In this document: positions 866-64,000 of the stretch, one piece after another
Layout: every line of letters starts with the position of its first letter
How positions within the stretch are numbered: the stretch's first letter is position 1
DNA from: Lingula anatina
Taxonomy: Eukaryota; Animalia; Brachiopoda
Length of the DNA stretch: 64,000 bases
Assembly: GCA_051362555.1 (NCBI GenBank)
Contig: CM120646.1
Coordinates: 14,198,001-14,262,000 of the forward strand
Reading direction: 5' to 3'
Position numbers and translations under genes: made by a program
The notes under the pieces: model-generated
The model's input: only the letters and a program-made list of their open reading frames with translations
Told to the model about the DNA's origin: nothing
The model's database searches: none

Positions 866-3591
866 TTATGGGCACAATCGCCGGAACTCGTCCCTGAGAG
901 CGGTCCTAGACCTGCCAAATAAGCATCTATCTGGAGGAGAGACGACAGCTGTAAAAGAAATGAAATGATATATTGCCTGGTTTGCACACAAGAAAATGGA
1001 GGGGGGTGGGGGGGTATCGCAGCCCTGTACCATATATTTACAGAAATTGCAAGGCTCAGGAGATAATAACGGCAATAGGTACAATTCAGATAAACCAGTA
1101 CTTAAACATTTTTATCATCTTAAATATTTGAATTGGGAATTATAAGAAGCTTTACAGGACATATGATGTTGGGGATTTTTAAACGCGTGGAGAGTACTTT
1201 AAATTGACTGAGGATAAGATTTCTACACACCTGGTGTATTACAGGAATCAGGCCCTTCTGCAAAATGTTTCTTTTTGTCCACTAACGTTTCTGAGCTCTT
1301 CAGTTTATAACAGAAGCATGGGAACTTTTTCTTGTAGATCTCAAATTTGATGTTGAGTTTGTAGAACAGTTTGTTCCCATCTGGTCCTGGCTTGCCGTCA
1401 TCATACATAGAGTTGTATCTGTAACAAAACAAGTTATTGATTAGATATGATATTTATGTAAGGAACGTATTAAATTGACTTAAAGTAGAAAGGAAACATG
1501 ATAAATGAATGAAAAGCTATATAGACAAATAAATAAATAAATAATGATAATTTTAAAAAATGGGATAGTAGAACTGCTTTGAGTTTAAACTTAACTCTTC
1601 CAAACATTACCTATGTAAAATTTATCTTAACCTATGCGTAAATGTAGACATCATTGTTAATGAAATTTTGTACCTGTAGGGACGTGCGAAAGAAAATAAA
1701 CATGGACTCGTGAAATGGGCTTGCAGACCAAAGCAAGACTTCAGCAAATAAGTCAAATAAAAAGTAAACACAGTTATCCATTATAGGCTAATCATTCATC
1801 CTCATGATGAATTTGGGATCATAAAGCAATGTAAACGCACCTGTTTCGCTGTAATGGGTTGTTTCGTGGTTTAGTACAGTCGTATCTGAGGAGAAAATCG
1901 AACTTCAGTTTAGCTTTGGCTACGCGCAGTCCGATCACTCTGACTGCAGCAGAGGCGACCTCTGTGGTCGACTGCATCTTCAGTACGCCCTCAGTCTCTC
2001 TGTTGTCAATGGGTATCTCAATAGGCTTTAGTTTGATCTACAGATACAAAAATATGTTTATTGTTAATGATTGCTTTTTAAAATCTAAATCTAAATACAT
2101 AAAGACAGATTGAACGAAAATTTAATGATGCACAGACAATTTAAGTTCACGTAAGGTATTTGACTGTAGTCTATCTATTTGCCACGTAATTCTATAAAAT
2201 CCCTTATTTTTAATACAAAGCGTAAAGTCCGCAGAGAGATTTCTACGTTAAGATTTCTGACCACCAATCCTGAATGTTCCATTAGTGCATTATCCATCGA
2301 ATAGTTAACAACAGTGTCCGTATTTCGAACCTATTTGTAATTTTCACCCTTGACTAAAGTTGCACGGTTCCGGACAAATTGTACGAAGTATAAGAATAAT
2401 AATAATAATGATAATAATTATCTATATATTATAGTATCACCTTTTTCAAAAGCCACGACTTAACAATCATAATATCATATAGTATAAACCCCATTCTTAC
2501 TTTCAATAGTCTTGCAATGCCGCTTAGTCGAAAGTCGGCGTCCAGATCAATGCGGATCTTCCAAGGGTTCTTACAGAAGGTGAACTTTGCCCTCGGGTTT
2601 CTTACCAACCCCGAAGCTAACTGTGGAATGGCGCAGAAATCAGGACTCGCGCAACAATTCCCGGTACATCTAGTAGGCAAGCAGCTCAGAATCTGCATCA
2701 CTTGGTCCAGTGAGCCGAGGGCCTTGACGACGGCATCGGGGATGTTCCCCGTGCGCATTAGCCGTTCCACGCGCTGCCGAATTGCATTCACGTCGATCTC
2801 GCGCTTTTCTCGAACTGCTGAAATGAGAATCGATTTAACCTTTAAAAATAAATAAAACTTGTGCCTAGTGCCGTGACTGAGTATTTTTTTCGATCCTTGT
2901 GATATTGAAACAGTTTATTTCCATTATTTATCATTCAAATTTATTTCTTTATTTATTTTCTTTCTAACAGGAAGGTAATGAGGAATACGACTTATTTTTA
3001 GCGATGTCTTTTTTCAAGTAACTTTTAAGTCTTGATTGTGTTTTGTCAATATGAATAAAACAAATACAGACTGCCTAAACTTTGGGTTTATTGTAATTGC
3101 ACCTAACCTGACCCCTTATACCTCCAAAAATGTATCTTTCCAGCTGAGTCAAACACATACGCATTCTCCCGTTGTTGTTGTTTAAATTCTGAGTTGAGCC
3201 CTAAATGACCATCTATCTAGCTAGAGACATATCTGTGAATATCTGTAAAAAATCTATCACTCGCCCTGGTAGAGGGTATAAAAGAGACAACAGGTCGTAA
3301 GTAGCAACTTCTTCCTCACTTTGTTGATGGTAAAATCCTTTGTTCTTAAAGTCGAAAAATGCACTGCCATTTAAAATATATGCAGTTACGCTGTCTTCTT
3401 AATTGGAGAACAAAATGAATTTGAGGGAATTCAAGCATTCTATCTTTGATGTAATACCAACCCCACACCTTCTCAAAGGAATGGAATTCCAAACTTAAAA
3501 AGAAAATGAACATAAGCTTACCTAATTCTGATGCCGCGCTGATCGCAACTAAAGACGCAAGGCAAAGTAATATGCCACAGAAACGATCCAT
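866..3591 (-). CDS. Uncharacterised secreted cysteine-containing protein, ~284 aa, 5 exons (3591-3522, 2817-2501, 2037-1841, 1418-1231, 948-866)
   Basis: Signal peptide MDRFCGILLCLASLVAISA. All four introns are GT-AG with compatible phases (1,0,2,1), giving one open frame ending ...DEFRRLCP*. Furin-like REKR follows the signal peptide, and there are 12 Cys in the mature region. No family recognised. Confidence 0.85.
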
Positions 3592-3663
3592 CTTTTCTAC
3601 AGAGGTTTGTTGTCGTCTCTGCTGGACAACAGAAGAGAATAATGCGTTTATTGCCCCGCTCTT

Positions 3664-3671
3664 TATTTATA
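3664..3671 (-). promoter_or_regulatory. Candidate TATA box of the orphan secreted protein gene
   Basis: TATAAATA on the minus strand ~75 nt upstream of the ATG at 3591. Confidence 0.55.
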
Positions 3672-6415: not shown

Positions 6416-7946
6416 CTACAAGGCGGGCTCCGTGGGCTCAGCGGTAGGCTGGGGGCGAGGGCAGCGACGAGAAGGGCGCAGGGTAGGGTCGGCACATCTG
6501 GCTGTCATGAATGCGCATCTAGAATAAGACAAAAAGTCGCAAAGTTGTTAGAAAATGAACTCATGTCGATAATTATGACACTTTGAATGCTTTTTCAATA
6601 TCTATTTCCAGATGAAGTTTTTGTTTTTCCTTTTTTCGTATGCTTATTTTTTACTACTACCAAGTCACCACAATTTCTTCATTGGGTATTCATTTTAAAC
6701 AAAAGGTGGGAAAACAACGCAAAAGTGAACAAACATTTTAAAATCTCTCTCTTTACTTTGCAACACCAAAAGTCAAGCCAAGCCTTATATTTTTTTACAT
6801 TTTCATTTTTGATATCTTGTTCATCAACTACAAGGTTTATACTGTCCACTCACTTGCTGGTGTACACGTTGCCCTTCATGTCACAGATCCTGATATTGGC
6901 TTCGTTCATCTTATCTGGGCAACCCTCCTCCTTAATCTTCTGGCACACGTCCTCCAGGGATGGTTTGGTTGGGCGTGGCCCCCTGGTGGGCTTGGTCATG
7001 TTGCTGAACTGAGACAGGTCCCCCATGCAGTGTCTGATGTTTCTGTCCACGCGCAGGCTGGGGTTTTCACAGCGGGCGAGCATGAATTGGCACCTGCAAT
7101 ATTTACTCGCTGTATTAACATTTTTTTTTTTGCTTTTAATTTATGATAAACATAAACTCTTTAGTCACTACAGTGAAAATCAGTTAAGATAAAATACTGT
7201 AAATCACAAAATCCTTAAGAAGTGGTCTTTTAACCATATAAAAACAGAATCCCTGTAACGAGCCCCATAACTTTTCTTTTCACAGCTACGAGAAATGGCG
7301 TCACTTACTTGGAGGTGTACATTTGTTTGTCGGAGCCGCAGATTTTCAAAGTGTTCGCCTGGTTCACACTTTGGCATTTTTGGGCAATCATCTTACACCT
7401 CTCCTCAAGGGATGGTCGGGTGGGCTTTGGGGGTCTTGTCGGGAGCTCTTGGGCCAGGGCAACGCCTAACAGAGAGCAACAATACAATGTTACACATGTA
7501 ACTGGTATGGTATAATATTTCAATGTAAACTTACAGGGGTAGTGTATGTGGTATTATCGGGTAAAAACGGAATCCTGGAGTTCAGTTAAAAGTGTAAAAT
7601 AAGTAAATAGATAAAAAAAATAAATGAATAAAACAGAAAGAAGACGGTGGCTTCAGAACAATGTGAGTATTGTCGTCGTTAACGTATATACTGAAGGAGA
7701 TAACATGTATCTATTAAACAAAATTGAAAAAGAATCATTAAAATAAAAGAAATAAAAAAATTAAACACAATGAAAACGGTTGACTTTTTTTTTTTATCTA
7801 GGAGGATGTTTATAACCTTAGAAGTATATGAATATAAGTCACTCATTTCACAAATTTTGAATCTGCACTTCTCTGGTGAAAAACATGAAAATATATTGTT
7901 ATATAAACATACCTGCCAGGAAAAGAACTGCAATCAGGACCTTCAT
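6416..7946 (-). CDS. Secreted two-domain Kazal-type protease-inhibitor-like protein, ~177 aa, 4 exons (7946-7913, 7465-7309, 7093-6854, 6518-6416)
   Basis: Signal peptide MKVLIAVLFLAGVALA. Two 6-Cys repeats carry the Kazal signature (ICGSDKQMYTSKCQFMLARC; ICDMKGNVYTSKCAFMTARC), joined by Pro/Thr-rich linkers. GT-AG introns in phases 1,2,2. AATAAA on the minus strand at 6251-6256. Confidence 0.88.
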
Positions 7947-12244: not shown

Positions 12245-13537
12245 TTAGACACGACTTAAATTGGGACTTAGCCGACACGGACTTAATCTCGTTGACTCTG
12301 AAGCGTCTCCCAAGTTTAAATTATTTCTCGAGATGGCGGGGGAACGAGAGTGTGGCGTTATTATGTATCTACCTGTGCCTCCTTGAGACGAGTCATTATC
12401 ATTTTGTTGTCTGCATCGGAAACAATGTTTAGTCAGTTTTCCAAGCTCCCGTCTAAACCGATGTCCACTAACACAGTACAACAGAAAATTAACCGCATGA
12501 TTGGTATAGTTTAATATAAGTACAAATGCGTCAACTAGATCTGGGATCGGTTGGTATTTCTCTATGATAAGAACGACAAAGCTTGGGGTGGCGGTGATTA
12601 AAAACACAAAATTGACGGTCAATAACATATAGGTCATTGATCTTGTGGTCTCATGATTATTGACGTTAGCTCCCCCTTCCGTCGTGTCGCTGTATTTCTT
12701 GCCCGGCTGCTTATTACGCAAGCCGTTTTGGTGTATGACCGTTTTTTTTCTGAACTGGTCCGATTTTCGAAGGCTTCTCGATATGAAGAGATTCATAATT
12801 ATCATAGCCGTAAACGGCCCAGCTGCGTAGATACTGAGTGCGATCCAGGGCCAGGCCACCACCCAAAACTCCTTATGCTCCTCCAAAACGGTGCATTTCA
12901 GTTTTCCTGGGTAAATCTCCTCAACGCTCTGTGTGAAAAAGAGATGGACATTTTTGGCAATCATGATGGTCGTGCAGATGACCAGCGCCAGTTTGGCCCT
13001 ACCGACACTGCACCAGGTGACAGAACGGAAGGGAAATCGAATTGAGATAAATCTGCCCGTTGTTAAAGTCACCAGAAGCCAGGCGCCCAAGTCCTGACAG
13101 GTGTACAGGACAAAACGATGCGTCTTGCACATGGCGTCATGAAGTACCCGGATGTCAATGTCCCAGTATATTCTTATCAGATGTCGCGATAAGCCAAAGA
13201 TGAGTACTAAGGTGTCAACGACAGCAAGTGCCGCCAGGAGGTACCCCATCCACGTGTGGCGAACAAATGGCCGACGCATGACCAAGAAAGCAAGTATGTT
13301 CCCGATACATCCGAATATCAACAGTAGCAGGGGAATTATTCGCAGAATCCAATCTGCAACCTTTTTCTCCAAAGATGGATCTGTTGGATATGTTTGGGAT
13401 GTGTTGTCCGAAGAGTTATACAAGCTCGCCCCAGACATATATGTAGGCCTTAACATGTCTCCATATTCCCCAGTTACTGTAATATCAGTTGACCAATTCA
13501 CATTGGTTTCAGAAGTGAGATAATTGAAATTCGCCAT
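12245..13537 (-). CDS. Rhodopsin-class (class A) orphan GPCR, FMRFamide/peptide-receptor-like, 430 aa, single coding exon
   Basis: Seven hydrophobic segments. TM1 GCIGN, TM2 LAVVD, TM3 Cys and GRF at the DRY position, TM7 NHAVNFLLYC, helix 8 FRREL. N-terminal N-glycosylation sequons. Confidence 0.93.
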   Translation of the reverse strand: MANFNYLTSETNVNWSTDITVTGEYGDMLRPTYMSGASLYNSSDNTSQTYPTDPSLEKKVADWILRIIPLLLLIFGCIGNILAFLVMRRPFVRHTWMGYLLAALAVVDTLVLIFGLSRHLIRIYWDIDIRVLHDAMCKTHRFVLYTCQDLGAWLLVTLTTGRFISIRFPFRSVTWCSVGRAKLALVICTTIMIAKNVHLFFTQSVEEIYPGKLKCTVLEEHKEFWVVAWPWIALSIYAAGPFTAMIIMNLFISRSLRKSDQFRKKTVIHQNGLRNKQPGKKYSDTTEGGANVNNHETTRSMTYMLLTVNFVFLITATPSFVVLIIEKYQPIPDLVDAFVLILNYTNHAVNFLLYCVSGHRFRRELGKLTKHCFRCRQQNDNDSSQGGTGRYIITPHSRSPAISRNNLNLGDASESTRLSPCRLSPNLSRV

Positions 13538-15563
13538 ATTTATTCTGCGTATACGTCCCTTCAGTCTGCAGGCCTATGTACTTGTGAAAAAAAGTCCGTA
13601 CTCACACTGCGCTTTTACCAATTACTGCAGTTAAACACTTCGTTGGGGTTCTTCAAGTTAATAAATTTCAGCTGTGTAAATGACGACTTAAAAAGTAGAC
13701 ATAACACGAAGATGTAGTATTTTAAACATAAAACCTCACGCTCTATTATTCTTTCACCTATGACGCCAGATGTGTAACCGGTGATAATGCGCACCTATAT
13801 GGGCTTGCTGACTTTATACTGCCAACATTAATGCCATTAAAAAAGACTTAATGACAACGCACTCCAGTTTACTCCCCAATGGAATGTGCGTCACATGTGG
13901 TTTCAGAAACGTAACGTTATTCTCTTTCCTCTCGTAGTAGTTATAATCATTGGTTCACAGATACTGTTGATTTGTTAACTGTCTATTACGGTGTTTTCGC
14001 TCTGTATCTGCAATGTTCTTTCTTTTCTGGAATCAAACACGTAAGCTAAATTAAAAGCTCTCCGTGGTGAAGTCAACGTATCTTTCAAGTTAATTTGCAT
14101 GTACCCGTCTATAGTGTGACATATCGATCTACGTCATGTGCTCAGTTTTGTTTCGGGGCACATGCGTATCAAACCCCCAAATTAGTTAACTGAGCAATAT
14201 GCGAAATCAAGTTCTCCTTTCCAAACACCTGAAGGCAAAATAAGGTCTGTGTATCTAAAAGTTTTTCTACAGCAGCAAGTGAAACGTATGTGAAGGCGTT
14301 TTTCCCCTGATATAATGTTGTCTTTTAAGAAGCGTGTTTGCGAAATTCCACTCTCCTATTGCCTCAAGGAAAAACTATGGTGTGCTATTTCCCAGGGCAC
14401 TATCGTGATTAATTCAATGCCCACTTCAATTGCAATGGCTGGGCGGTTCCACTTGCTGGTTGCTACAGGCAAAATGCGCCCTCTTTTTCTTATCATGCAC
14501 CACTCTCTTGATGCTACAATAGCAAAATTGTAATGTACTTATGTCTCATAAACATATACCGTTCACTGCCAAGTACTGGATCCACCGAGGTTTTAAATGG
14601 AATGGTGCTGGCAATTACAGGTAAATCGAAAACCACTCTTCTGTGCTGAGATGCGACCAAATGTGTACCGTGTAAGTAGTGGCGTTGAAAAATCAATCGT
14701 AGGTTGGTTGCCCCAAAACGGAATGCACCAGGCAAAAGCGAATCAGCAAATGTTCTAACAGTTCCGCTTTGGCAACAAACAATGACACAACTGTTTCTCG
14801 TTTCTCCGCAGTCTGACTTTAAAATGAAACCCTGAATAGCAAAATTCAGTTTATAAGCACTTCGTTAAAAGTGCGGCATCTCAGCGTGAACTGTGTTCTT
14901 GACACGGCAATACCCACTTAGTCATCGAACGATGTGCAATTATATGCTTTATAAAACTCTCAATCCCATTTGCGGCAATGGAAACCGCGCGGCTGCCCAT
15001 TAATTTATTACCTTTGACGGTTTATGAATTAGACAAATAGAACGGCAACCGGCCATCGATATTAATAGGAAGTGTGCACTATCTTGTTGATTTGCGTCCC
15101 CAGTGGTAAAATGAATAAAGCAATATGGTGATTTTCTGAGAAACGCTGCAAGTGTCATTTGAAAAGAACCATCATGACAGCAACTGGGGTGTTCCGATGA
15201 GGTCAAATCCTTGCTATCAGCTCCACCAAAAAATACCGAAGGCAATAAATGCTTTGAATCTCGAGTGGTCAATATCGAATGGTCAAAGCCCGAATCTAGA
15301 TTGTCTTCCTTGGTTGAATTTGAGGTGAGATGCGGCTGGCTTATCTATAAGATATTGGCTTCTGTTAATAGTCCAAATGGCCCAAGGGTGAAAGACAGTG
15401 GTCTTGTGAAGTGCTGTATAGTTCTGGAAACTCCGTAAACAGAAACAAGCACCAGATGTACCTTTGATGAGAGATGCTGGAATCTGAAAGTAAACGATTT
15501 ATAAACCATCAGTAAAATGATAAGTCACAGAAAGGGGACATTGATATGTATTTTGTATATCAG

Positions 15564-41694: not shown

Positions 41695-43140
41695 TCAGAA
41701 ACGCGTTTCTGCAGTGACAGCATTTTCCTGATTTCTCTCACGTCCGTTTTCATTTCTTGTAGCAGCTGGGTCTGGGATAACTTGCGACTGACTAATACTC
41801 CCACGGCTGCTTCCAAAATTCGATTCGAACCTCCCGCGGCCGGCATTACGTCTGAGCATTCGAAGGAATTCGTTTCGGAATCTCCTTCCGCTAACACAGT
41901 AGAGTAAGAAGTTAATCGTGTGGTTCGAATAGTTGAGCATCAAAACGATCGTCGAAGTTAATCGCTGTGTTGCTTTCTGGCGTGAACTGTTAATGTGTTG
42001 GTATGGTTCTATGATAAGGTTGATAAAACTCGGCGTCGCCAAGATCAAAAAAATAATGGTCACAACAAATAACATCACTGTGATGGATCTAGATGCGAAA
42101 GCATGCTGGTTACTGTTAACGCCCCTCTTTTGTCTCACTATGTTGGAACCATGACGAGATAGTCTTTCTGTCTCACGATTTTGTTCATGGGCTGTCGAGT
42201 TATGTGTCGCTGAGTTGTGGTCATCTGCTTTGTTGTCCATTTGGGTTGGTCTTGAATGGCGCCTAAAATGTCCCCTTCTAGGCGACTCAACAATCCTTGC
42301 AGGTTGCGATCCTGAAGTTGTATCATCTGTCACTTCCAGTGGGTGATTGTTGTTATTGAAGGAATTTACACTAAGGGGCGAAGTGGATGGGGGATCATTA
42401 TTGTTTTGGTAATAGGCCGAATTGCGAGTAGAGCGAAGTTGGAATCGCGTCGATCTCCGCAGTGAACGAACAATCAATATATTTAGAACAATCATGACAG
42501 CGAACGGGCCGGCGGCGTACACACAAAAAGTTATCCACGGGTAGATAAACTTCCAAAAATTATGATGGTCGGAATCGCAATAATGGTTGCAATGGCGTTC
42601 ACCCGTTAATGCGTTAACGTTTATGTCAACGGTAAACAGCACGTGTGCGTTCTTAGCAAAAACGCATCCGACGATCACCGCTAACGCAATTCGAGCTCTT
42701 TTGGTTGAGCACAGTCTGTAGGATTGTAAAATATGGCATGTTGAAATGTACCGCCCTACTGTTAATCCAACGAGCAGCCAAGTTGACATATCCAGGAAGA
42801 AGTACAAAGTAAACCGATGTAGTTTACACACAGCAGCATGCGCTTCTCGTATATCGAAATTACCATACACTCTGATCATGTGACGAGATAGTCCCAGCCA
42901 AAGTGCAAAGGTGTCGGTCACGGCTAACGCTCGTAAAAAGAAACCTATCCACGTCCTCCGCATGAAGGGGCGTCGTAAAACCAGATAAGACATGATGTTG
43001 CCAAGTGTGCCGATTATCAGCAAAATCGGTGGCACAGTCTTGTTAAGCCACGTACTTATCTGATACTGCAGCTCCTCTGTGGCATCAAAAGTCGCATTGT
43101 TTTGCCAAAGATAGCATTCAGCGATATCACTTGAGTTCAT
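41695..43140 (-). CDS. Rhodopsin-class orphan GPCR, 481 aa, single coding exon, paralogue of 12245-13537
   Basis: TM1 GTLGN, shared RRPFxRxTW loop, TM2 LAVTD, CKLHRF, GRY at the DRY position, YAAGPF in TM5, TM7 NHTINFLLYCVSG. Long Asn/His/Ser-rich third intracellular loop. Probable 5'UTR splice acceptor at 43204. Confidence 0.93.
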   Translation of the reverse strand: MNSSDIAECYLWQNNATFDATEELQYQISTWLNKTVPPILLIIGTLGNIMSYLVLRRPFMRRTWIGFFLRALAVTDTFALWLGLSRHMIRVYGNFDIREAHAAVCKLHRFTLYFFLDMSTWLLVGLTVGRYISTCHILQSYRLCSTKRARIALAVIVGCVFAKNAHVLFTVDINVNALTGERHCNHYCDSDHHNFWKFIYPWITFCVYAAGPFAVMIVLNILIVRSLRRSTRFQLRSTRNSAYYQNNNDPPSTSPLSVNSFNNNNHPLEVTDDTTSGSQPARIVESPRRGHFRRHSRPTQMDNKADDHNSATHNSTAHEQNRETERLSRHGSNIVRQKRGVNSNQHAFASRSITVMLFVVTIIFLILATPSFINLIIEPYQHINSSRQKATQRLTSTIVLMLNYSNHTINFLLYCVSGRRFRNEFLRMLRRNAGRGRFESNFGSSRGSISQSQVIPDPAATRNENGRERNQENAVTAETRF

Positions 43141-43278
43141 TGCGAGAACCTGTCTTCATTAACTTTTTCACACTTTTTTCCAGGATCCTTAATGTTCTTT
43201 GAACTGGAAAAAAGAAAATATGATGTAATTTATGTGACCGAAAAAGAACGTGTCAGTACTGCCAAATAGAAGAGAACT

Positions 43279-49281: not shown

Positions 49282-49808
49282 GGGGGGGGGGGGGCAAAAT
49301 GAGAAAAAAAGAGAAGCTGTGATGTCTTATTTACTCCACGTAGTGCCAAATGACGTTTTTATAATCAGCTATATTTTATCAATGTCATTGAATTCTTATT
49401 AGTGTATGATTGGTACATTCATGCTGTTGACAAACGTACATTTTCGATGTAAGAAACCATTACTTGCATCCATAAACATTTTTGTTCGTGTCGGTCACGT
49501 AATAATAGATAATGGAAATGCGTTTACTTTAACCATCGATTTTCTCCTGGTAAACTTTACTTCCACTATAGCCCTTTGATGTAAATGAAAGTGGATTTTG
49601 AATACACACAACTACAGGGCATTTAGATTATGTGATAAAAGACACTTGGTAACTAGCATTATTGATGTAAATGTTGTCGTAAAGTGATGGCTACTGGTCT
49701 TGCATTGGGAAAATTGTCGAAGATAAAAAAATCCATTCACGGATAAAGAGATTATCGTGAATGAATGTAGCAGAATTTTTACATTTAATCTATTCATTTT
49801 GCAGCAAC

Positions 49809-51074
49809 ATGTCACGTAAGGAGAAACAGCAATCTACGCAAGACGAAGGAGCGATGATAAAATGCGAACAACTGGAAGAAATAATCCCAAAAGTACCGAT
49901 ATTGCGTCTTCCTGCCAAAACACACATTTCCAATGTCATTTTATCCTCCAATCCATGGGAAAGGCGAGAATTGGAGAAAAAATTACAGCATATGTGCACT
50001 GAACGCTTTCGGAAAATCCACGCGCTCCAATGGCATCAAAGGAAGTTCTTTTTGACGAAGTACTTTGAAGAGACTAATAATATTGGACGTCTACAGAAAG
50101 CTTTATGCGACAATATTCAACCTGCCAGCTCTCCAATAAAGTCTCAACTCCGATTTTCCGCCACAAAACGCGACTTAACATTTGTTTCTGACCCTGGCGT
50201 TAATATATTTTGTGGTCAAGTTGGTCACGCTGAACAACCGCTCCAAAGGAACCAAAATGTCAGTGCTGTTGCTTCTGGAACACAACAAACGCTCCCCATT
50301 GGTAATGGCGTAGGGAAGAAACCCCAACATTTCACGGAGTCGCTAAATTCGCACACGGGAAGTACATGCGGGAGTGTTTGTGAGGCACCAAGAGCTATGG
50401 TCATGGCTAAAGACGAGCTCGGAGATGCCAGGGAAAGCAATGGTAATGACGGCATGCTCTGTCTCATGGAACGAAGTCAGGAACCTTTTTCTAAGGACAC
50501 TATCAGTGACTTGACACCCACAGACCAAATTATACATGCCAAACCGCATGCAAACAACTTACAAGTTGACGCCAACGCGTATGACATGTCCCTTCCTCCA
50601 TTGATTGCTCAACCACATCGCTCTCTCACCACAGTTGACATTGCCACCAATACTGAAACTCAACCAGCGGCTCCGAACCGACAGCTAACTCTGCCTGCAC
50701 TACGCCTTACTCCTCCACAGCACCAAGGAGAGAGACCGGTTACTCAGGAAAACAAAACTCTTGGGAACTTAGACGGCCATAAGCCTAACTCCAACCGTGG
50801 GGGACAATTATACACGCGCACCAATGTGTTAAAAGATTTGGTGAGGACGTTGCCGTTTTCTATGCAAGCCAAGGCAGAGGAATTGTCTAGCAGGCGGTTA
50901 AAGGAGAAGAAGATGAAACTTTTAGATAGGGCAAAGATGCTCTCTAGAAGGAGCCTGTTCGAAGATCCAAGATGGCGGCGTTTACATGACACATTGCAGG
51001 AACTGAACGGGAGTAAGGACGATGACGTGATGAGTACAGCGTCTGAGAATGACACATCACTGAGCTGTGATTGA
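49809..51074 (+). CDS. Uncharacterised intracellular protein (~421 aa) with predicted helical N- and C-terminal segments and a disordered middle
   Basis: 1.3-kb ORF in AT-rich DNA. A polypyrimidine tract and CAG acceptor at 49804 precede ATG 49809, making it a better start than 49761. Motifs SNPWERRELEKKL and LFEDPRWRRL. No signal peptide. Confidence 0.7.
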   Translation: MSRKEKQQSTQDEGAMIKCEQLEEIIPKVPILRLPAKTHISNVILSSNPWERRELEKKLQHMCTERFRKIHALQWHQRKFFLTKYFEETNNIGRLQKALCDNIQPASSPIKSQLRFSATKRDLTFVSDPGVNIFCGQVGHAEQPLQRNQNVSAVASGTQQTLPIGNGVGKKPQHFTESLNSHTGSTCGSVCEAPRAMVMAKDELGDARESNGNDGMLCLMERSQEPFSKDTISDLTPTDQIIHAKPHANNLQVDANAYDMSLPPLIAQPHRSLTTVDIATNTETQPAAPNRQLTLPALRLTPPQHQGERPVTQENKTLGNLDGHKPNSNRGGQLYTRTNVLKDLVRTLPFSMQAKAEELSSRRLKEKKMKLLDRAKMLSRRSLFEDPRWRRLHDTLQELNGSKDDDVMSTASENDTSLSCD

Positions 51075-53558: not shown

Positions 53559-55952
53559 TCAGCAGTTGGCCTGTTTGTCATAATTCACGAATGCGTCGTT
53601 GAAATTAGGCAAGTGTCTCTTAAAGCACCGGAAGGCGGCAGCGTCGCACTCGCAGACTTGCGAACGGCACGAGCCTGCCCACCAGTAGTATTCAGGGGGC
53701 TCTGAATGAAAAGAAAAACAGGATGTACAGTTTTATAGATGGAAGGACGGCGAAACAGACAGACAGACAGACAGAGATAAATAGATACATGTAGTGCGAC
53801 TGAAAGCTGTGAATACGTCATGAATACACGACCATTCATCGGGCCATTTACGACCAATTTATAACGATTTATAACAATTGTACTGAAAATTTGAACATTG
53901 GACTAAATTAATATAGATGACTTGAAGTTAATAAGATTCTATCAACACTTACTGCAGTAGGGATCGTGGCATTTGTCGTATCGATATGGCACCAGATAGG
54001 GCGACTGTGCCCAGGCACAAATACCATTAAGGTCTATGTTTGCGAAACATTCGTCGTGTTTCTGACAGCATCTATTGTGGAAATATGAAAATATTCAAAG
54101 AAGTATAACGGGACACGGATTATTGTGCTTCCAAGGCTAATGCTTCTGATATCTTGTACATTTTTCACCTTTGATTTGAGCAATTTAACACTGGACGTCA
54201 AGTCTACGTATTAATCTTTATTGTTAAAAGTTTGACCATCGATTTTGTTTGCATATAGATGTTTTCTAACATATAATAACACGAAAAGCAATGATCACTC
54301 CCCCCCCCCACACACACACTCATACGTGCGCACACACGTACGCACACGCACATACAAACCTGCCCAAAACCGCGTTACCAATAAACATACTCACTCGTCT
54401 ATTCCGTCCACCGGATCCCCGGATCCTCCTACTCCGCAGTGACAACCATAACCACCTGGAAATCTGAGAGGGTTTTTCTCTTTGAGACACTGGGAAAGTA
54501 GGCGGTGCTTGAACACAGTGGCCGGGACCTCCTCCTCGGAGGTAATGGTGGGCGGGACTCCTGGGATAACTGAAATAGGACCATTTATATATCCCTCAAA
54601 CATTGAAATCTGTGGGATAGGATAACGAATAATCCTCACATATTAAAAACCTGAGCAGTAAGATAAGGATCTAAATAGGATTGTTAATATTCCTCACAAA
54701 GTGATATCTGTCGGATAGGATAACGAATATTCCTCACATATTAAAACCTGAGCAGTAGGATAAGGATCGAAATAGGATTGTTAATATTCCTCACACATTG
54801 ATATCTGTCGGATAGGATAAGGAAATAGGACTCTATATATTTCTTACACATAAATGTCTGAAGAATAAGATTCGAATGTAGGGCTGGCTATTCATATTCC
54901 TCACTCATTGATTTCTGTGGCATGGGATAAGGAAATAGCGTTATTGCCTTTACATGGGCCTCTAGATCAATAATAAAACTCATTCGCACTTTTATAGCAA
55001 AACATTTAGTAGATCATTGTGCACATCTTATCAATTGATTTAGAGAAGAACTTCAATATCGATCACCCCACTATACATTTGGTAATATTTCACCGACAAC
55101 GACTTACAGACGTCAATTGCGAAGTATAGCCTCTGACGGTCCGGGATAGCTTCCAAAGAACACCACTTGTTCATTCGATATTGGGGTGTGGTGGCGTCGT
55201 ACATTCCTTTGAGGTTTGTCCAGCAGCTTCCGTCGGGCGCGACGCTGAACGCTGTAAACCCAGCAGCATGTGCACCTCTTACGCATGCGTCAAGGTGTAG
55301 CGACATATTGGAGTAAAATGGAATGGAGACGTTGTAGGCGTAAAATGGAGCGTAACGAGAGAAAAACTGCCGCTGAGGATCGTTCCAGCATCCCAGTCTT
55401 CGGTGGTGTAGTATGATAGCTGGAATGATGATGTTAGACGTAATTAGATTTAGTAAGATCAAATTAGACTTGATCAATAGTAGGCCTGCGTATGGATATG
55501 AAATGTTATGGGAAATTTAGAATGCATACAAAGAGAGAGGAGGCGCAATGAAAACTGATTTGTGACGCATTTTATTTTACAAATTATGGAGTTTACATGA
55601 TACTTACTAAACCTAATTGGTTATTTTTTTCAAAATACGATTCATCCATATACCCAAATATCACCCCACTGCTTTTAATGTTCAAAAACGATCAAAGAAA
55701 TGGCCACAATCATATCCATTTAAGGCAATACGCGCCAGGACCGTATTAAGAAGTTAAAAAAAAAAAAAAAAGCAGGATGGCACCTAGACAGTCCGTGTCT
55801 CTCCTCCAGTCGCAGACGCCAAGCATAGGGTTATAGCGTGTGTCGTCATGGCACGCTTGTTCATAGCCCCTTCCATACTGACAGTGGACAAACTGGTCAC
55901 ACTTTGTAGGGTGGGTATTTAGCTGCAAACCTGGAGAGCATATTCTGTCTGA

Positions 55953-56014
<62 letters not shown>

Positions 56015-57862
56015 ATGTGTATCATGGTTATATGATATATCATTGCTGCTATGAACACACGGACAAAGAAGTGAAAAGAAAGGTTTCAATAAAAAAAAAA
56101 AAAAAAAATTGCAGTTCGCTCAAAGAGTTCTGGCCACCAGTGTGGAAGTCTATGCACAATGTACGATCCGCAATCAAACAGCCGTGCTCAGACTACTTTT
56201 TGACTCATAAAACAAAAAGTGTTCAACTTAATTATGTCTTATTCCTTTAACAAGTTACAGTATTGTGGTATCTTTCATTTGTATGGTTTAAAGAGAATAT
56301 ACACAGGAATTGTCAAAGATTAAAAGGAAGTCCTACATTATCCAAATATCAACCTTTAGATTACTGATTTTGTTTTAATTGAGCAATTGCCACTCTTCGT
56401 TGTGGACAAGAAAAATTGTATTGATGATAAGCAAAATGAATAAACACAGAGCCAAACAACCAACCAAATAAATACATAAATAAAGGAAAATACAGCCAAC
56501 AAACACATAAAGGTACTCTGTATAGGGTTTACCGACAAAAATTAAATTTCTTCGAGAAACAGCAATTTAATCCTTTTCAGGCATTATTGCTCGACCCAGC
56601 CCTGCACTTGGATTCGAAACTTTATTCCATTTTTAATTTAATAATTTAATCCAAAATGAATGGTCATTAATTGAGAGCGCCATGTCTTCATGTGCATTTC
56701 AGAAGAAACTATCGACGTCAGATACTTTTCGTGAGGGGATTTATAGCTTTTTTAAAAAGTCTGAATTCAGTTATATTAGCAGCTTTGCAGGATATGTACA
56801 TTTAAAACAACCTGACTTTGGAAAATTTTCAAACGCGTGCAGTATACCTCTAACGACTGTCTGTTAACATTAACGGTCTGAGCACGTGATTCATGTACAC
56901 GTTACACTCATTACACCGCTCTGCACATTTATCATGTGGACGTGCAGCCGTGCATGCGGTTTTATTGTGCGTGTAGAGCACGAGTATCAAGACCCGGTGA
57001 AACGCGTGTGAAAGGGCGCTCCTGTGACAAACACAGTGAAAACAGTACAACAAAGTCAAATTATGAATTTAAATAAGATATTTAGACTTGAATTCGAATT
57101 ACTACTTATGCCAACTTCTAGTGCGTTTCGGTGTTCCCTACCTACACTTAATATGACAATTATTTCACAAAATATAAAATACAAACACACAGGGTATCCA
57201 ATTAATGACACACACTTGCTAAAACGGAACTTAATGCGATGTCTTAATCACATTTTAATGGCTATCAAAACCAATTAACACGCTTTCATGTGTAGACCGG
57301 CGTATTCGCCGGTCATATTAAACAAGATCTCCAAAGAAAAATAAAAATAAAAGAGCAATTTAGGAAAAAAGGCTAAACATATATGAATTATAGAAAGGGA
57401 AATGACTAAGCGCCCAATTTTATAACAAGAAGGTTATATTTTACACGAAAAGTTGATATGATTTCGTCCATATGTTGTAAAATCGGCATCACTATGGATT
57501 AGGCATCTCTTATTTCTTTTTTTTTGCATATTACAAATCATGCCTTTGCGGTGTTTTTGGAAGTTTAACTCCTATCAGCAGAATTTTCGTTTCTTCCATG
57601 TCGCTACATCAGCATGTTATTTTTTCTTTAAAACAGTTTGGCAAATCGCTCCGATAAATCCCACGACTTTTAAATGTAATTTAACAGCGTAATCCACCTC
57701 TTGTTTTTAAAAAAGTTCTTTACTGATATATCATAATATATATAACTTTTCTGAATATTTTAAAAATCACTTACTCAGTTGAAGCTGTGATAATGTAAGG
57801 ATACCTGGGACCAGAAGACAAATGAGTATCGAAGCCACAAACGGTAACTTATCAGAAAACAT
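53559..57862 (-). CDS. Modular secretory phospholipase A2 (gene A): signal peptide + CBM14 chitin-binding + WSC-like + sPLA2, ~333 aa, 6 exons (57862-57775, 55948-55784, 55419-55108, 54569-54395, 54071-53953, 53701-53559)
   Basis: Ca-loop YGCHCGVGGSG, active-site CCQKHDECF, and CECD (Asp99 equivalent). CBM14 6-Cys pattern CSPG...HPTKCDQFVHC...QACHDDTRYNPMLGVCDW...C. WSC-like LGCWND...C...GFTAFSV..DGSCW. Intron phases 1,1,1,2,1 are all compatible. Confidence 0.88.
54562..54938. repeat. Degenerate intronic minisatellite, ~97-98-bp period with ~45-55-bp subunits
   Basis: TCTGT(G/C)GGATAGGATAA recurs at 54609, 54707 and 54804. Confidence 0.85.
55953..56012. repeat. (AAT)n microsatellite
   Basis: Direct reading. 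Abuts the splice acceptor of the CBM14 exon. Confidence 0.95.
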
Positions 57863-60639: not shown

Positions 60640-63401
60640 TCAGTGGCATTTTCTTTTGTCGTAGTTGACGTATTTGGCGTTGAAGGTCCCCCTCTGGTCT
60701 TGAAAACACTGGGCTGCTATCATGTCACACTTACAGATCTGGTAGCGACACCGCCCGTATAGCCAGTACCACGACGGAAGTCCTAGAACAGTGTGATATA
60801 AAAGGGAAAAATACCATTTATACTTAATGATGTTGCTTTTGAGCACCCACGTTGTTTCCTTATTGTTATCAATTAAATTCTGGTTCCTCAAGCACTTTAG
60901 CTATGGGTGAGCGGCTTCGGTAAGATATTTTGCACGCCAAATGTTTTAATGGTATAAATGGTCGTTGAAAATATTTAGAGGCGGACCACGACTATTAAAT
61001 AGGACTTAATCTTCACGAAGTCGGTAAGCCATAATCTTCTTCACACTCATTTGATGAAATTTTAGAGCAACATTAAGTAAAAAATATTTTTGGACATTTT
61101 ACAGGATATATAGGTCTACATAAAAAAATTTTTAAGTAACGGAGAGGGGTTTAATCGTGGAAAAATAATTAAATAGACATGATAAAGAAATGATAAAGAG
61201 ATCTTATATAACAAAATAAGTTTTCTTACGGCAGGCTGGCGTCATATTATTTCCCTTGCATCCACTGTAAGAGTAAGGAAGAAGATAGACAGTTAACCTC
61301 CAGTTACACTGCCCAGTTCTTGTCAACATCTCGTAACACTCATCGTGAATCTTACAGCACCTGTGAGGAAAAAAAAAACAATTAAATTAGTCATTGAGTC
61401 GTTCATGTACTTATCCCTTATGCATGCTATCCTTGATTCCTCTCAAGTACACGTAGGTTTCCTAAGATAAAATTTAGTTTATAATAACCTACTGGGACAT
61501 TTTATTAAAAAAATACTCTATTGATAGAGACTGTTTAGTTATCTTTCCTCACAATGCAAGGCACCGGTAACTTTTTCACCATAATTCCAAATCAAATCTG
61601 ACTTTCTCTTACTCTCTCTCCTCACACAGACAAGCACACACGCACGTGCATAAGGACACACACACGCAAACGCGAGTACGCACATTCACTTACTCGTCTG
61701 TGGGGTCGACTACTGCCCCGTGGCCACCAAGACCGCAGTGGCAACCATAACCATAATACTTCAGGGGATCCATGCCGGTCACACAGCCAACTAACGTACT
61801 GAACTCTGCCACGGATTCCAAAGGGTGATGCCCTGAAATATTCGATAGACCTTAAAAAAGACTGCCTAAATGAACCACTCGAATTGTACGTCTCTTTTAT
61901 GCGTGGAACTTTCCCTTCAAATTTACTTCACACAAAAAAAAAAAATAAATAAAAAATAAATAAATAAATAAATAAATAAAAAAGCCAGGAAAGCGGGAAT
62001 CTGGATATTAATGGCTTCTGATATCAAAAGAAGAACTGAGTGGCTTTTACCGTAGACACAACATTTATGATCATAAAACAACTACATATATCTAACAAAA
62101 TAAAGACGAAAATTGGGCAGTGTCACCTTGGGTTGAACCTGAAATAGTTAGAGCATCGTAACCGCAATTTCTACGGTCTTTAAGATATTTAAACTTCTTT
62201 AACCAAAAATGTTACTGTACACGCCCGTGATAATTTGGGTTTGGTAAAAGGGGGCAGTTACCAAATGAACCAAGATGCGTATTGTCGTGCTGTTAGCATA
62301 AATTTAATGCAATCAAGAATCACCTCAGTAAAATTCAGGGACCAAGGTAGGGAGGAGCGAACTCGACCCCCTCCCCCTCTCCCCCCCCCCCCCCCTTCGT
62401 GATACTGCCTCCGTCAGCAATTGTAATTCTTAAAATAATTTTCACCTTTGTCTACACGAAAAAGTCTAACTTGACCTTTTCTAGGCATGTCATTTTTACA
62501 GTGACTTGGCTGGTTTTGGGGGCTCTGCTCCACTGCCGTCTCCAGCTCCACGTCCGAGCTCAACGGCCCCCAGCAGTAGTTGTGCCTATCGATCCCGAAG
62601 TACCGGTGGCGTACCTTCAAGGCCTTGTGGGTACATCGGCGTAATGCGTAGGAGGCGTCTTGAAAGCGGTGGCGCGCGGGGTCACTTATATAGGTCAAGG
62701 TCGTGTCGTTTTCGTCACGCGCTGCTAATAAAGCTTTAAGGTCGATCTTAACTTCGTCTAGCTTTGCTGACAGCATTTTATTGGCATCGTCTATGCACCC
62801 AAGGTCCAGGACTGAGTGTCTGTGGAATTCTGAATAAGGAAGAGCATATCACTTTTTGGGTATTTATATTCTTATATTAAGTTGTACGACAGCGTCTTTT
62901 ATATTTAGAATTAATAAATAATGTTTTTTTCCTCAAAATTGGTATGCTCCGTTTATTACAGATATATTGTATTCATCCAAGGGGTAGTAATCTTATAAAG
63001 AAATTATAATTATTAACAAATTATTGGATAGAAGCGTATGAGGAAAACATCGAGAAAAAAACATAGACTCTGGCCGCGACTAAGAGAAACCCTAAAATTA
63101 CCCCCATACGGGTGCAAATAGTAGGTACACATTCATTCAACTTCAGTCTCCTTCAGCTTCTGTGATTTAACAGTAATAATTTTGGTTGTCATAAAAGCGA
63201 GGTCGAAACAAAGCAGCCAGTATAAACTGTTTGAATCAAAATTAAAACAAAAACGTGGTAGTATATAATGCATTAAATGTTAAACAAACATGCATTTAAA
63301 CAAAATGTACCTTTGATTTCGTCACTGATTTCAGCCGTAGCTGCAAATACCACGACGCAGAGAATGGTCAAACTCAAACTTTCCCCCAAACACCATGCCA
63401 T
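60640..63401 (-). CDS. Modular secretory phospholipase A2 (gene B): signal peptide + WSC-like + sPLA2, ~295 aa, 5 coding exons (63401-63311, 62829-62446, 61832-61694, 61360-61230, 60782-60640)
   Basis: Signal peptide MAWCLGESLSLTILCVVVFAATA. WSC-like LGCIDD...CTHKALKVRHRYFGIDRHNYCW. Ca-loop YGCHCGLGGHG, CCKIHDECY, CKCD, and 14 Cys in the PLA2 domain. Same intron positions as gene A. Confidence 0.9.
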
Positions 63402-64000
63402 GGCTGGAGTTTCGCCAAATTACGACGTGCCCCAACAAGTGAAGCAACGGACGCAAAAACGGCAAGCCCTGATGAAAAAATGAAAGGTCTCTGTCGAATC
63501 ACCCCTTCGACGCTGCGGTCGGTGGTACGTGACACACGGACACAACGCAGGTGACACTGCAGTGGTGACACGGATGGGCGTGGCAGTCTACTCAGCACAG
63601 AGAGTGACACGTGACAACTGTCTGAAGACTTGGCGTCGTTTTGTTTGTGATAACTGTTCATCTTTATCGAATGTAACACGTCCTCTGTGGCCTATTTTGC
63701 CATGTATTGCACATATACATGAAGAGTATTTGGATACTTTAATCACGGCATAACTTTAATTTTTTTCAGCCAAAAAGCATAATTTGCATAATTTGCGTTG
63801 CCGTTCATCATGACAGCAGGCTATGTTTAATATATTTATAACCCTTCGTAGTTCCAAAAAGTTAAGTCCTCTGAAATGCAACGGGACGTGTGGCCAAAGA
63901 AAAACTTTTTTGTTTGTTTTTTTTATGAAATCTCACTTTATATTTAGTAAATGTGCCGAATATTAATATTGCTCTCTCTATTGGCTGTTATAGAAACCGC

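What the first reader, a model, noticed from the sequence alone, without database searches (positions are those of the whole stretch)
53559..57862. Chitin-binding (CBM14) + WSC-like + phospholipase A2 fusion: candidate glycan-targeted secreted lipase
Seen: six phase-compatible exons join a signal peptide, a 6-Cys peritrophin-A/CBM14 module, a WSC-like module and an sPLA2 that retains His48/Asp49, Asp99 and the Ca2+ loop. Known: conventional group I/II/V/X sPLA2s are small single-domain enzymes, CBM14 binds chitin, and WSC domains are carbohydrate-binding modules. Inference: the enzyme is tethered to chitin/glycan surfaces (fungal walls, arthropod prey cuticle, or the animal's own peritrophic or other chitinous matrix) and hydrolyses adjacent membranes. 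I do not know a described protein with this architecture.
Basis: partly seen in the sequence, partly recalled or inferred. Interest (0 to 1): 0.88.

Follow-up and report, generated by a model that had tools for sequence, protein, structure and literature searches.

The report
Lectin-headed secreted phospholipase of a brachiopod
A lamp-shell (brachiopod) gene splices a chitin-binding-type module and a WSC-fold module onto a secreted-type phospholipase A2, a combination not found in our searches, which likely anchors a membrane-digesting enzyme to chitin in the animal's gut.

Summary
The gene is real. Six minus-strand exons give a 333-residue protein; RNA reads show four of the five junctions, including CBM14 exon to WSC-like exon to PLA2 exons. 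Exons 2-6 are identical in protein to an uncharacterised Lingula anatina record. CBM14 and PLA2 pass Pfam cut-offs. The middle exon has no Pfam WSC hit, but its relatives, a profile built without it and a fold search all point to a divergent WSC/PAN fold. The PLA2 keeps His48/Asp49/Asp99, the Ca loop and a group-I-type cysteine set; Tyr52 is Phe. All 14 RNA differences tested are synonymous. New here: a tandem paralog just upstream has signal peptide + WSC-like + PLA2 without CBM14 and a different expression pattern, so CBM14 is a phase 1-1 plug-in exon. Chitin or glycan binding, activity and tissue are untested; the CBM14 keeps the key Trp but not the Pro/Leu pocket. Best reading: a chitin-tethered digestive PLA2. 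No description was found in 10 literature searches; the protein searches were too insensitive to prove rarity. New variant of a known kind.

The parts
57775..57862 (-). Exon 1: start codon and signal-peptide-like leader (aa 1-29); donor GTAAGT, phase 1
   Evidence: best 11-residue hydropathy 3.19; rest of the protein at most 0.93 over 19 residues; RNA depth in X4; junction to exon 2 not seen directly; 3 residues differ from public model P0001
55784..55948 (-). Exon 2: peritrophin-A / CBM14 module, 6 Cys (aa 33, 46, 52, 62, 75, 83), Trp77; symmetric phase 1-1 exon
   Evidence: Pfam CBM_14 38.5 bits vs cut-off 22.1; PDB matches to chitinase CBMs, EHEP, tachycitin; joined to exon 3 in RNA
55108..55419 (-). 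Exon 3: divergent 4-Cys WSC/PAN-fold module (aa 86-188; Cys 95, 130, 150, 171; two N-glycosylation sequons); symmetric phase 1-1 exon
   Evidence: no Pfam WSC hit; relatives P0003/P0004 carry Pfam WSC; profile scores; model pLDDT 72.3; best fold matches are WSC domains; 12 of 12 RNA differences synonymous
54395..54569 (-). Exon 4: acidic Pro/Thr/Glu linker (aa 189-204), PLA2 N-terminal helix and Ca2+-binding loop YGCHCGVGG
   Evidence: Pfam Phospholip_A2_1 E 5.2e-06; joints 54569/55108 and 54071/54395
53953..54071 (-). Exon 5: PLA2 catalytic helix CCQKHDECF (His48/Asp49; Phe at the Tyr52 place) and a loop of near pancreatic-loop length
53559..53701 (-). Exon 6 (coding part): CECD helix with Asp99 equivalent (Asp306), C-terminal Cys, stop; 3' UTR depth continues below 53559
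60640..63401 (-). Tandem paralog, 5 exons (63401-63311, 62829-62446, 61832-61694, 61360-61230, 60782-60640), about 295 aa: signal-like leader + WSC-like module + intact PLA2, no CBM14
   Evidence: 4 of 4 junctions in RNA; phases 1,1,2,1; Pfam PLA2; WSC-like profile top-two hit; no CBM14 match at this locus

Best explanation
This is a spliced, transcribed brachiopod gene for a likely secreted, likely Ca2+-dependent group-I-type phospholipase A2 carrying an N-terminal CBM14 module and a predicted WSC-fold module, which likely hold the enzyme on chitin-rich gut matrix or food particles so that it would digest phospholipids there. Shown: exon structure, splicing, domain order, catalytic residues, purifying selection and a CBM14-less tandem paralog. 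Inferred: secretion (hydrophobic leader, no SignalP run), activity, chitin or glycan binding, and gut expression. Origin (inferred): a WSC-like exon was first joined to a group-I-type PLA2 gene, the gene duplicated in tandem, and one copy gained (or the other lost) a phase 1-1 CBM14 exon.
For: Splicing and expression. Pfam CBM_14 and Phospholip_A2_1 above cut-off. His252/Asp253/Asp306 and Ca loop align with human group IIA and group I structures. 14 of 14 RNA differences tested in coding exons are synonymous, 12 of 12 in the WSC-like exon, where 22% (all changes) or 33% (transitions) would be expected; p about 1e-8 to 1.5e-6. In Lingula the PA21B-like family is among the 20 most expanded (12 copies) and is marked highly expressed in digestive cecum (PMC4595640 Suppl. 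Table 14). Chitin synthases are highly expressed in gut and digestive caecum, suggesting a peritrophic matrix (PMC4595640, passages). Precedent for CBM14 tethering on gut chitin: Ciona VCBP-C (PMC6109156, passages). The PLA2 domain is near neutral (pI 6.55; 14 K/R vs 15 D/E), unlike the cationic bactericidal group IIA enzyme (recalled).
Against: Tissue of this gene is unknown: the runs are coded, and the digestive-cecum label is for the family, not shown for this gene. CBM14 lacks the Pro451 and Leu454 equivalents (His63, Thr66), 2 of 3 high-impact residues in chitotriosidase, and some CBM14 folds do not bind chitin. The WSC-like module has half the cysteines of Kremen1's WSC, and its fold matches are middling (best Z 7.3; none at E <= 0.001 by Foldseek). 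Tyr52 is replaced by Phe. Group I/II PLA2s normally need a free N-terminus for full interfacial activity (recalled); here it is blocked by the fused modules, and the linker holds no Lys/Arg.
Confidence: 0.5

Rival explanations
1. A glycan-guided antimicrobial effector: CBM14 holds it on the chitinous gut barrier or on fungal walls, the WSC-like module recognises beta-glucan-type microbial glycans, and the PLA2 damages the microbe's membrane.
For: Fungal WSC proteins bind beta-glucan (PMC9252488, passages). VCBP-C tethers bacteria to chitin through a CBM14. The Ca loop YGCHCGVGG matches human group IIA. The two tandem copies are expressed differently.
Against: The PLA2 domain is not cationic; the disulfide set is group-I (digestive) type; no infection or tissue data; animal WSC in Kremen1 binds protein.
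Confidence: 0.2
2. The N-terminal modules are not glycan tethers: they act as a pro-region removed on activation, or bind proteins or dietary polyphenols that would otherwise inhibit the enzyme.
For: EHEP, a three-CBM14 gut protein of Aplysia, binds polyphenol and not chitin and is among the PDB matches of exon 2. The WSC/PAN fold is often a protein-binding fold. Two of three high-impact chitin residues are changed. A blocked N-terminus is unusual for group I (recalled).
Against: Trp77 matches the key chitin-stacking Trp465 (14 residues after the Pro place in both), and the best PDB matches are chitinase CBMs. There is no basic residue in the linker for trypsin-type release.
Confidence: 0.2
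3. A shell or chaetal matrix protein that binds the chitin scaffold and remodels phospholipid membranes during apatite deposition.
For: The Lingula shell is an apatite-chitin composite with CBM14-bearing matrix proteins (PMC13425148 section 8). Two other PLA2 gene models (09129, 240 aa; 09130, 128 aa) were each found by one peptide in the 2015 shell proteome. PLA2-like shell proteins occur in Nautilus and Lottia (PMC8700984, passages).
Against: Neither 2015 shell PLA2 matches this protein (333 aa, pI 6.6) or the paralog (295 aa) in length, neither lists CBM14, and neither is marked mantle-enriched. This gene's accessions are absent from the held supplement of the 2026 shell proteome (its Tables S2/S5/S6 may not be in that file). 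The family is marked digestive cecum, not mantle.
Confidence: 0.1

Closest known systems
Group I (IB pancreatic-type) secreted phospholipase A2, Pfam PF00068
   Same: His48/Asp49/Asp99, Ca2+ loop, 14 Cys with Cys at or next to the Cys11 and Cys77 places, no Cys50, no C-terminal extension; the loop after Cys61 is one residue shorter than in 1p7o and four longer than in 3vc0 and human IIA.
   Different: Two folded N-terminal modules and an acidic linker replace the short propeptide; Phe at the Tyr52 place; the N-terminal helix pattern is shifted.
Human group IIA sPLA2 (1ayp/1n29)
   Same: Best PDB sequence match (E 7.5e-15) and the same YGCHCGVGG loop.
   Different: No Cys50, no C-terminal extension, not cationic (pI 6.55), multidomain.
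CBM14-bearing gut proteins: GH18-CBM14 chitinases, VCBP-C of Ciona, EHEP of Aplysia
   Same: 6-Cys peritrophin-A module on a secreted protein.
   Different: The partner is a phospholipase, not a chitinase, Ig domain or further CBM14; the Pro/Leu pocket is changed.
WSC domain (yeast Wsc1 7pz2, Fusarium glyoxal oxidase 9n3u, Kremen1 5fws) and the invertebrate 4-Cys WSC-like repeats (Styela clava P0003)
   Same: Fold matches Z 7.3, 7.2 and 5.8; pattern GC-x-x-D ... C-x3-A ... G-x-CW ... C shared with the repeats.
   Different: No Pfam WSC hit on the exon itself, 4 Cys instead of 8, 13-17% identity to solved WSC domains; none of the relatives examined carries a PLA2 or CBM14.
Public record XP_013405515.1 / XP_013395277.1 / UniProt A0A1S3IAI9 (Lingula anatina, 'uncharacterized protein' / 'Phospholipase A2')
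   Same: Identical in exons 2-6; precomputed Pfam already lists PF00068 + PF01607.
   Different: Three residues differ in exon 1; the WSC-like module is not annotated there; no study found.

Membership tests
Secreted PLA2, group I/II fold (PF00068) | His48-Asp49 motif and Asp99 | tested here: met
   His252, Asp253, Asp306 align with solved enzymes
Secreted PLA2, group I/II fold (PF00068) | Ca2+-binding loop Y-G-C-x-C-G-x-G-G | tested here: met
   YGCHCGVGG at 229-237
Secreted PLA2, group I/II fold (PF00068) | Profile score above curated cut-off | tested here: met
   73.3 vs 32.1 bits
Secreted PLA2, group I/II fold (PF00068) | Tyr52 and Tyr73 of the catalytic network (numbering recalled) | tested here: inconclusive
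   Tyr73 place kept (Tyr276); Tyr52 place is Phe256, where the aligned structures have Tyr. Recalled: this change is tolerated in bovine pancreatic PLA2.
Secreted PLA2, group I/II fold (PF00068) | Ca2+-dependent sn-2 hydrolysis | not testable with these tools
   needs an assay
Group I sPLA2 | Cys11-Cys77 pair, no Cys50, no C-terminal extension (definition recalled) | tested here: met
   14 Cys; Cys216 and Cys281 lie at or one residue from the Cys11/Cys77 places of 1p7o and 3vc0; HDEC instead of HDCC. Pairing inferred from position, not modelled.
Group IB sPLA2 | Five-residue pancreatic loop and short propeptide | tested here: inconclusive
   loop one residue shorter than 1p7o, four longer than 3vc0 (definition PMC13320979, passages); no short propeptide, folded modules instead; no tree built
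Group II sPLA2 | Cys50 paired with a C-terminal extension (definition recalled) | tested here: not met
   Glu at the Cys50 place
CBM14 / peritrophin-A (PF01607) | Six-Cys spacing and profile score above cut-off | tested here: met
   C-x12-C-x5-C-x9-C-x12-C-x7-C; 38.5 vs 22.1 bits
CBM14 / peritrophin-A (PF01607) | Chitin-binding residues as in chitotriosidase (Trp465, Pro451, Leu454) | tested here: inconclusive
   Trp kept (Trp77); His63 and Thr66 at the Pro and Leu places, mapped by spacing; binding residues are not conserved across CBM14s
CBM14 / peritrophin-A (PF01607) | Binds chitin | not testable with these tools
   needs a pull-down
WSC domain (PF01822) | Pfam profile hit / eight-Cys pattern | tested here: not met
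   no WSC hit at E <= 1; 4 Cys vs four disulfides in Kremen1 WSC
WSC/PAN fold (works-like level) | Antiparallel five-strand sheet with one helix; similarity to WSC-bearing proteins | tested here: met
   model pLDDT 72.3 with five strands and one helix; ranks 1, 2, 4, 5 of 48,161 chains are WSC domains, Z 5.8-7.3; a profile without window rows ranks both window modules first of 1629 segments
WSC/PAN fold (works-like level) | Binds beta-glucan or another glycan | not testable with these tools
   needs a glycan array

The most novel reading that the evidence does not exclude
Lingula has built a small family of lectin-headed group-I phospholipases by exon shuffling (WSC-like + PLA2, and CBM14 + WSC-like + PLA2), in which swappable glycan-reading heads aim one lipolytic domain at different surfaces, making this a chitin-anchored, glycan-targeted membrane-attacking effector of the invertebrate gut barrier and a group-I sPLA2 that works with a blocked N-terminus.
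Probability: 0.2. Interest if true: 0.75.

Novelty: new variant of a known kind. Interest (0 to 1): 0.5.

Why it matters
Group I/II secreted PLA2s are known as small single-domain enzymes that find membranes through their own surface charge and a free N-terminus (recalled). A transcribed, selected group-I-type enzyme with two folded modules in front offers a direct test of whether this fold can be aimed by lectin-type heads and can work with its N-terminus blocked. The tandem paralog without CBM14 is a natural control. It also gives a handle on the proposed but unproven chitinous gut matrix of brachiopods and a first context for the widespread, unstudied 4-Cys WSC-like module of marine invertebrates. 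The mechanism (exon shuffling of CBM14) is ordinary, and the CBM14 + PLA2 pair is already visible in a public automatic annotation.

Tried and rejected
No whole genome is held, so the family could not be counted or a tree built. Protein searches for the same architecture returned only P0001: 1 of 34 candidates (exon 3, longer proteins), 1 of 593 (whole protein), 1 of 5 (PLA2 region). These found no other PLA2 at all, not even the neighbouring paralog, so they say little about rarity. The HMMER scan of 1.84 billion representatives with exon 3 gave 4 hits: itself, P0003 and P0004 (WSC-like repeats), and P0002, rejected as a 20-residue chance match in an unrelated repeat protein. The Atlas gave no usable feature hit for the whole protein, and none of 8 structure rows combined PLA2 with CBM14 or WSC. 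Single-sequence folding of the whole protein failed (pLDDT 32.2) and was not used. Direct BLASTP of the two WSC-like exons showed no similarity (E 23); their kinship rests on profiles. The A3 profile found nothing in the PDB by sequence. Foldseek gave no match at E <= 0.001. The weak DUF5354 hit on exon 3 (E 0.079) was not pursued. An alternative exon 1 donor at 57805 is disfavoured by the weaker donor and by P0001 but not excluded by reads. No RNA depth lies in bin 56921-57337, so no extra exon there. The display of one alignment printed nothing. Earlier findings of the scan: nothing relevant. No complex prediction was run, as no binding partner is claimed.
Full report
Observation. The minus strand between 57862 and 53559 holds six exons (57862-57775, 55948-55784, 55419-55108, 54569-54395, 54071-53953, 53701-53559) with AG acceptors, GT donors and compatible phases (1,1,1,2,1), 1002 nt in all, 333 residues plus stop. 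A database protein, P0001, named by its sources as an uncharacterised Lingula anatina protein (XP_013405515.1, XP_013395277.1, UniProt A0A1S3IAI9), is 333 aa, identical to the window in exons 2-6 and different at 3 residues of exon 1. The window is therefore most likely Lingula anatina, another allele or copy. No genome is held.

Splicing. In run X4, reads join 54569/55108 (28 reads), 54071/54395 (57) and 53701/53953 (25). The two upstream junctions were not listed in that call, which dropped 2 joints at simple repeats; both ends of exon 2 abut repeats. I therefore laid reads on 54700-55744, which holds exon 3 but not exon 2. The loose ends past exon 3 were the same 30 letters in 13 reads of X4, 3 of X5 and 4 of X9, agreement 1.0, and they map to 55786, the end of the CBM14 exon. 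X6 laid nothing. The exon 1/2 junction was not seen directly and rests on depth over exon 1 and on P0001. Introns have close to no depth, apart from a few reads at 56584-56615 that run on into unrelated sequence.

Selection. All 12 differences listed within exon 3, and the 2 further ones in coding exons among the rows shown (63 rows there were not shown), are synonymous: 14 of 14. In exon 3, 22% of all single changes and 33% of transitions are synonymous, so 12 of 12 has a chance of about 1e-8 to 1.5e-6. The unannotated middle module is under purifying selection.

Domains. Exon 2 scores 38.5 bits on Pfam CBM_14 (cut-off 22.1), has six Cys and matches chitinase CBMs, EHEP and tachycitin in the PDB (7 matches at E <= 1). 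By spacing, Trp77 corresponds to chitotriosidase Trp465, while the Pro451 and Leu454 places hold His and Thr; these three were the high-impact residues in an alanine scan (PMC5459812, passages). EHEP and Der p 23 have this fold without binding chitin (PMC10619976, passages). Chitin binding is thus plausible, not assured. The PLA2 domain scores 73.3 bits (cut-off 32.1) and matches 149 PDB sequences at E <= 0.001. His252, Asp253, Asp306 and the Ca loop are intact; the Tyr52 place is Phe. Its 14 Cys follow the group I pattern (Cys near the 11 and 77 places, no Cys50, no extension), with a loop close to pancreatic-loop length (loop definition from PMC13320979, passages; residue numbering recalled). 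The domain is near neutral (pI 6.55).

The middle module. Exon 3 has no Pfam WSC hit, so it is not filed as a PF01822 member. It does look like one in four ways. (i) The Atlas feature search gave clusters with WSC in 17-21% of members at score 0.92-0.93. (ii) Two of its three non-self HMMER hits, P0003 (Styela clava) and P0004, pass the Pfam WSC cut-off; the third is a chance match. (iii) A profile from 15 repeats of these two scores exon 3 at 28.4 bits against at most 9.8 for 500 shuffles (partly circular). A profile from 9 repeats in 6 of the 10 metagenome loci, built without window rows, ranks the paralog's module (20.1 bits) and exon 3 (16.0 bits) first and second of 1629 six-frame segments of the window, the next being 7.4. 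Eight of these 9 repeats hit Pfam WSC, all below the cut-off. (iv) A model from an 11-row alignment (pLDDT 72.3, pTM 0.66) has yeast Wsc1 and Kremen1 at the top by Foldseek, though none at E <= 0.001, and WSC domains at ranks 1, 2, 4 and 5 of 48,161 chains by VIA-align (Z 7.3, 7.2, 5.8, 5.8), with PAN/apple domains around them. These Z values are middling, but the agreement across methods supports a divergent 4-Cys WSC/PAN fold. Fungal WSC proteins bind beta-glucan (PMC9252488, passages); in Kremen1 the domain binds protein and has four disulfides (PMC5014086, passages). Its ligand here is unknown.

Surroundings. About 2.8 kb upstream on the same strand lies a second gene (63401-60640) with a hydrophobic leader, a WSC-like exon and three PLA2 exons with intact His/Asp/Tyr/Asp, about 295 aa, intron phases 1,1,2,1. 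Its four junctions are in RNA. It has no CBM14: exon 2 matches nowhere else in the window. The CBM14 exon is a symmetric phase 1-1 unit, so it can be added or removed without a frameshift; gain or loss cannot be told without a tree. The two genes are expressed differently: in X1 the paralog has depth of about 9-57 and the target 0; in X4 the target has 6-36 and the paralog at most 5. Tissues are unknown.

How it likely works. The leader likely directs secretion (hydropathy only). The PLA2 would hydrolyse phospholipids with Ca2+, and the CBM14 would retain the enzyme on chitin. Published context favours the gut: Lingula has 21 PF00068 genes against 1-5 in three molluscs (PMC4595640 Suppl. Table 6), its PA21B-like family (12 copies) is marked highly expressed in digestive cecum (Suppl. 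Table 14), and chitin synthases are high in gut and caecum (passages). Whether this gene is among the 12 is not shown. Ciona VCBP-C is a precedent for a CBM14 holding an effector on gut chitin (PMC6109156, passages). I put a chitin-tethered digestive enzyme at 0.5, an antimicrobial effector at 0.2, non-glycan or pro-region roles of the modules at 0.2 and a shell-matrix role at 0.1. Two other PLA2 models appear by single peptides in the 2015 shell proteome, but they differ in length and list no CBM14; this gene's accessions are not in the held supplement of the 2026 shell proteome (PMC13425148; section 8 read, supplement searched), whose supplementary tables may be in a file I could not see.

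Novelty. Ten literature searches were run; those aimed at the architecture gave 0 papers (PLA2 + chitin-binding domain + domain architecture + invertebrate), 0 (PLA2 + peritrophin-A + fused), 13 (PLA2 + WSC domain; listing seen, two read by passages), 22 (PLA2 + Lingula; one listed, one read by passages) and 51 (20 listed, listing only). None seen describes this protein. Most subscription journals are not in the library, including surveys of invertebrate sPLA2 domains that I recall but could not read. Protein searches returned no second example but were insensitive. The CBM14 + PLA2 pair is already in the automatic annotation of P0001; the WSC-like module, the paralog comparison and the RNA proof are the additions. 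Verdict: a real, apparently undescribed domain arrangement of a well-known enzyme family, made by ordinary exon shuffling; function untested. New variant of a known kind, interest 0.5.

Noticed in passing
window 60640-63401 (-): Tandem paralog: leader + WSC-like + PLA2 without CBM14, keeps Tyr52; expressed strongly in X1 where the target gene is silent. It did not appear in any protein search.
   Followed up: yes
window 63176-64000 (+): In X4, reads of the opposite orientation (depth about 3.8) cover the 5' end of the paralog and beyond, suggesting a head-to-head or antisense transcript.
   Followed up: no
window 12245-13573 (-) and 41695-43155 (-): Two single-exon rhodopsin-family GPCR frames, 7tm_1 76.5 and 84.8 bits.
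   Followed up: partly
window 49761-51074 (+): 437-residue open frame with no Pfam hit at E <= 0.05.
   Followed up: partly
window about 3346-3666 (-) and 6850-7140 (-): A signal-peptide-like stretch and, separately, a Cys-rich 96-residue frame without Pfam hit; possibly exons of small secreted proteins, not necessarily the same gene.
   Followed up: partly
P0001: The identical protein is filed under two Lingula loci (LOC106170266, LOC106162517), either a recent duplicate or an uncollapsed haplotype.
   Followed up: no
L001-L003, L004, L005, L007: Metagenome contigs encode the same 4-6-Cys WSC-like module in tandem pairs behind an acidic leader, after EGF-like repeats, or before EGF-like and vWA-like parts (by eye), showing a mobile, little-described module.
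   Followed up: partly
window 56584-56615: A few reads in X1 and X4 match only this short intron stretch and run on into unrelated sequence, likely a dispersed repeat.
   Followed up: no
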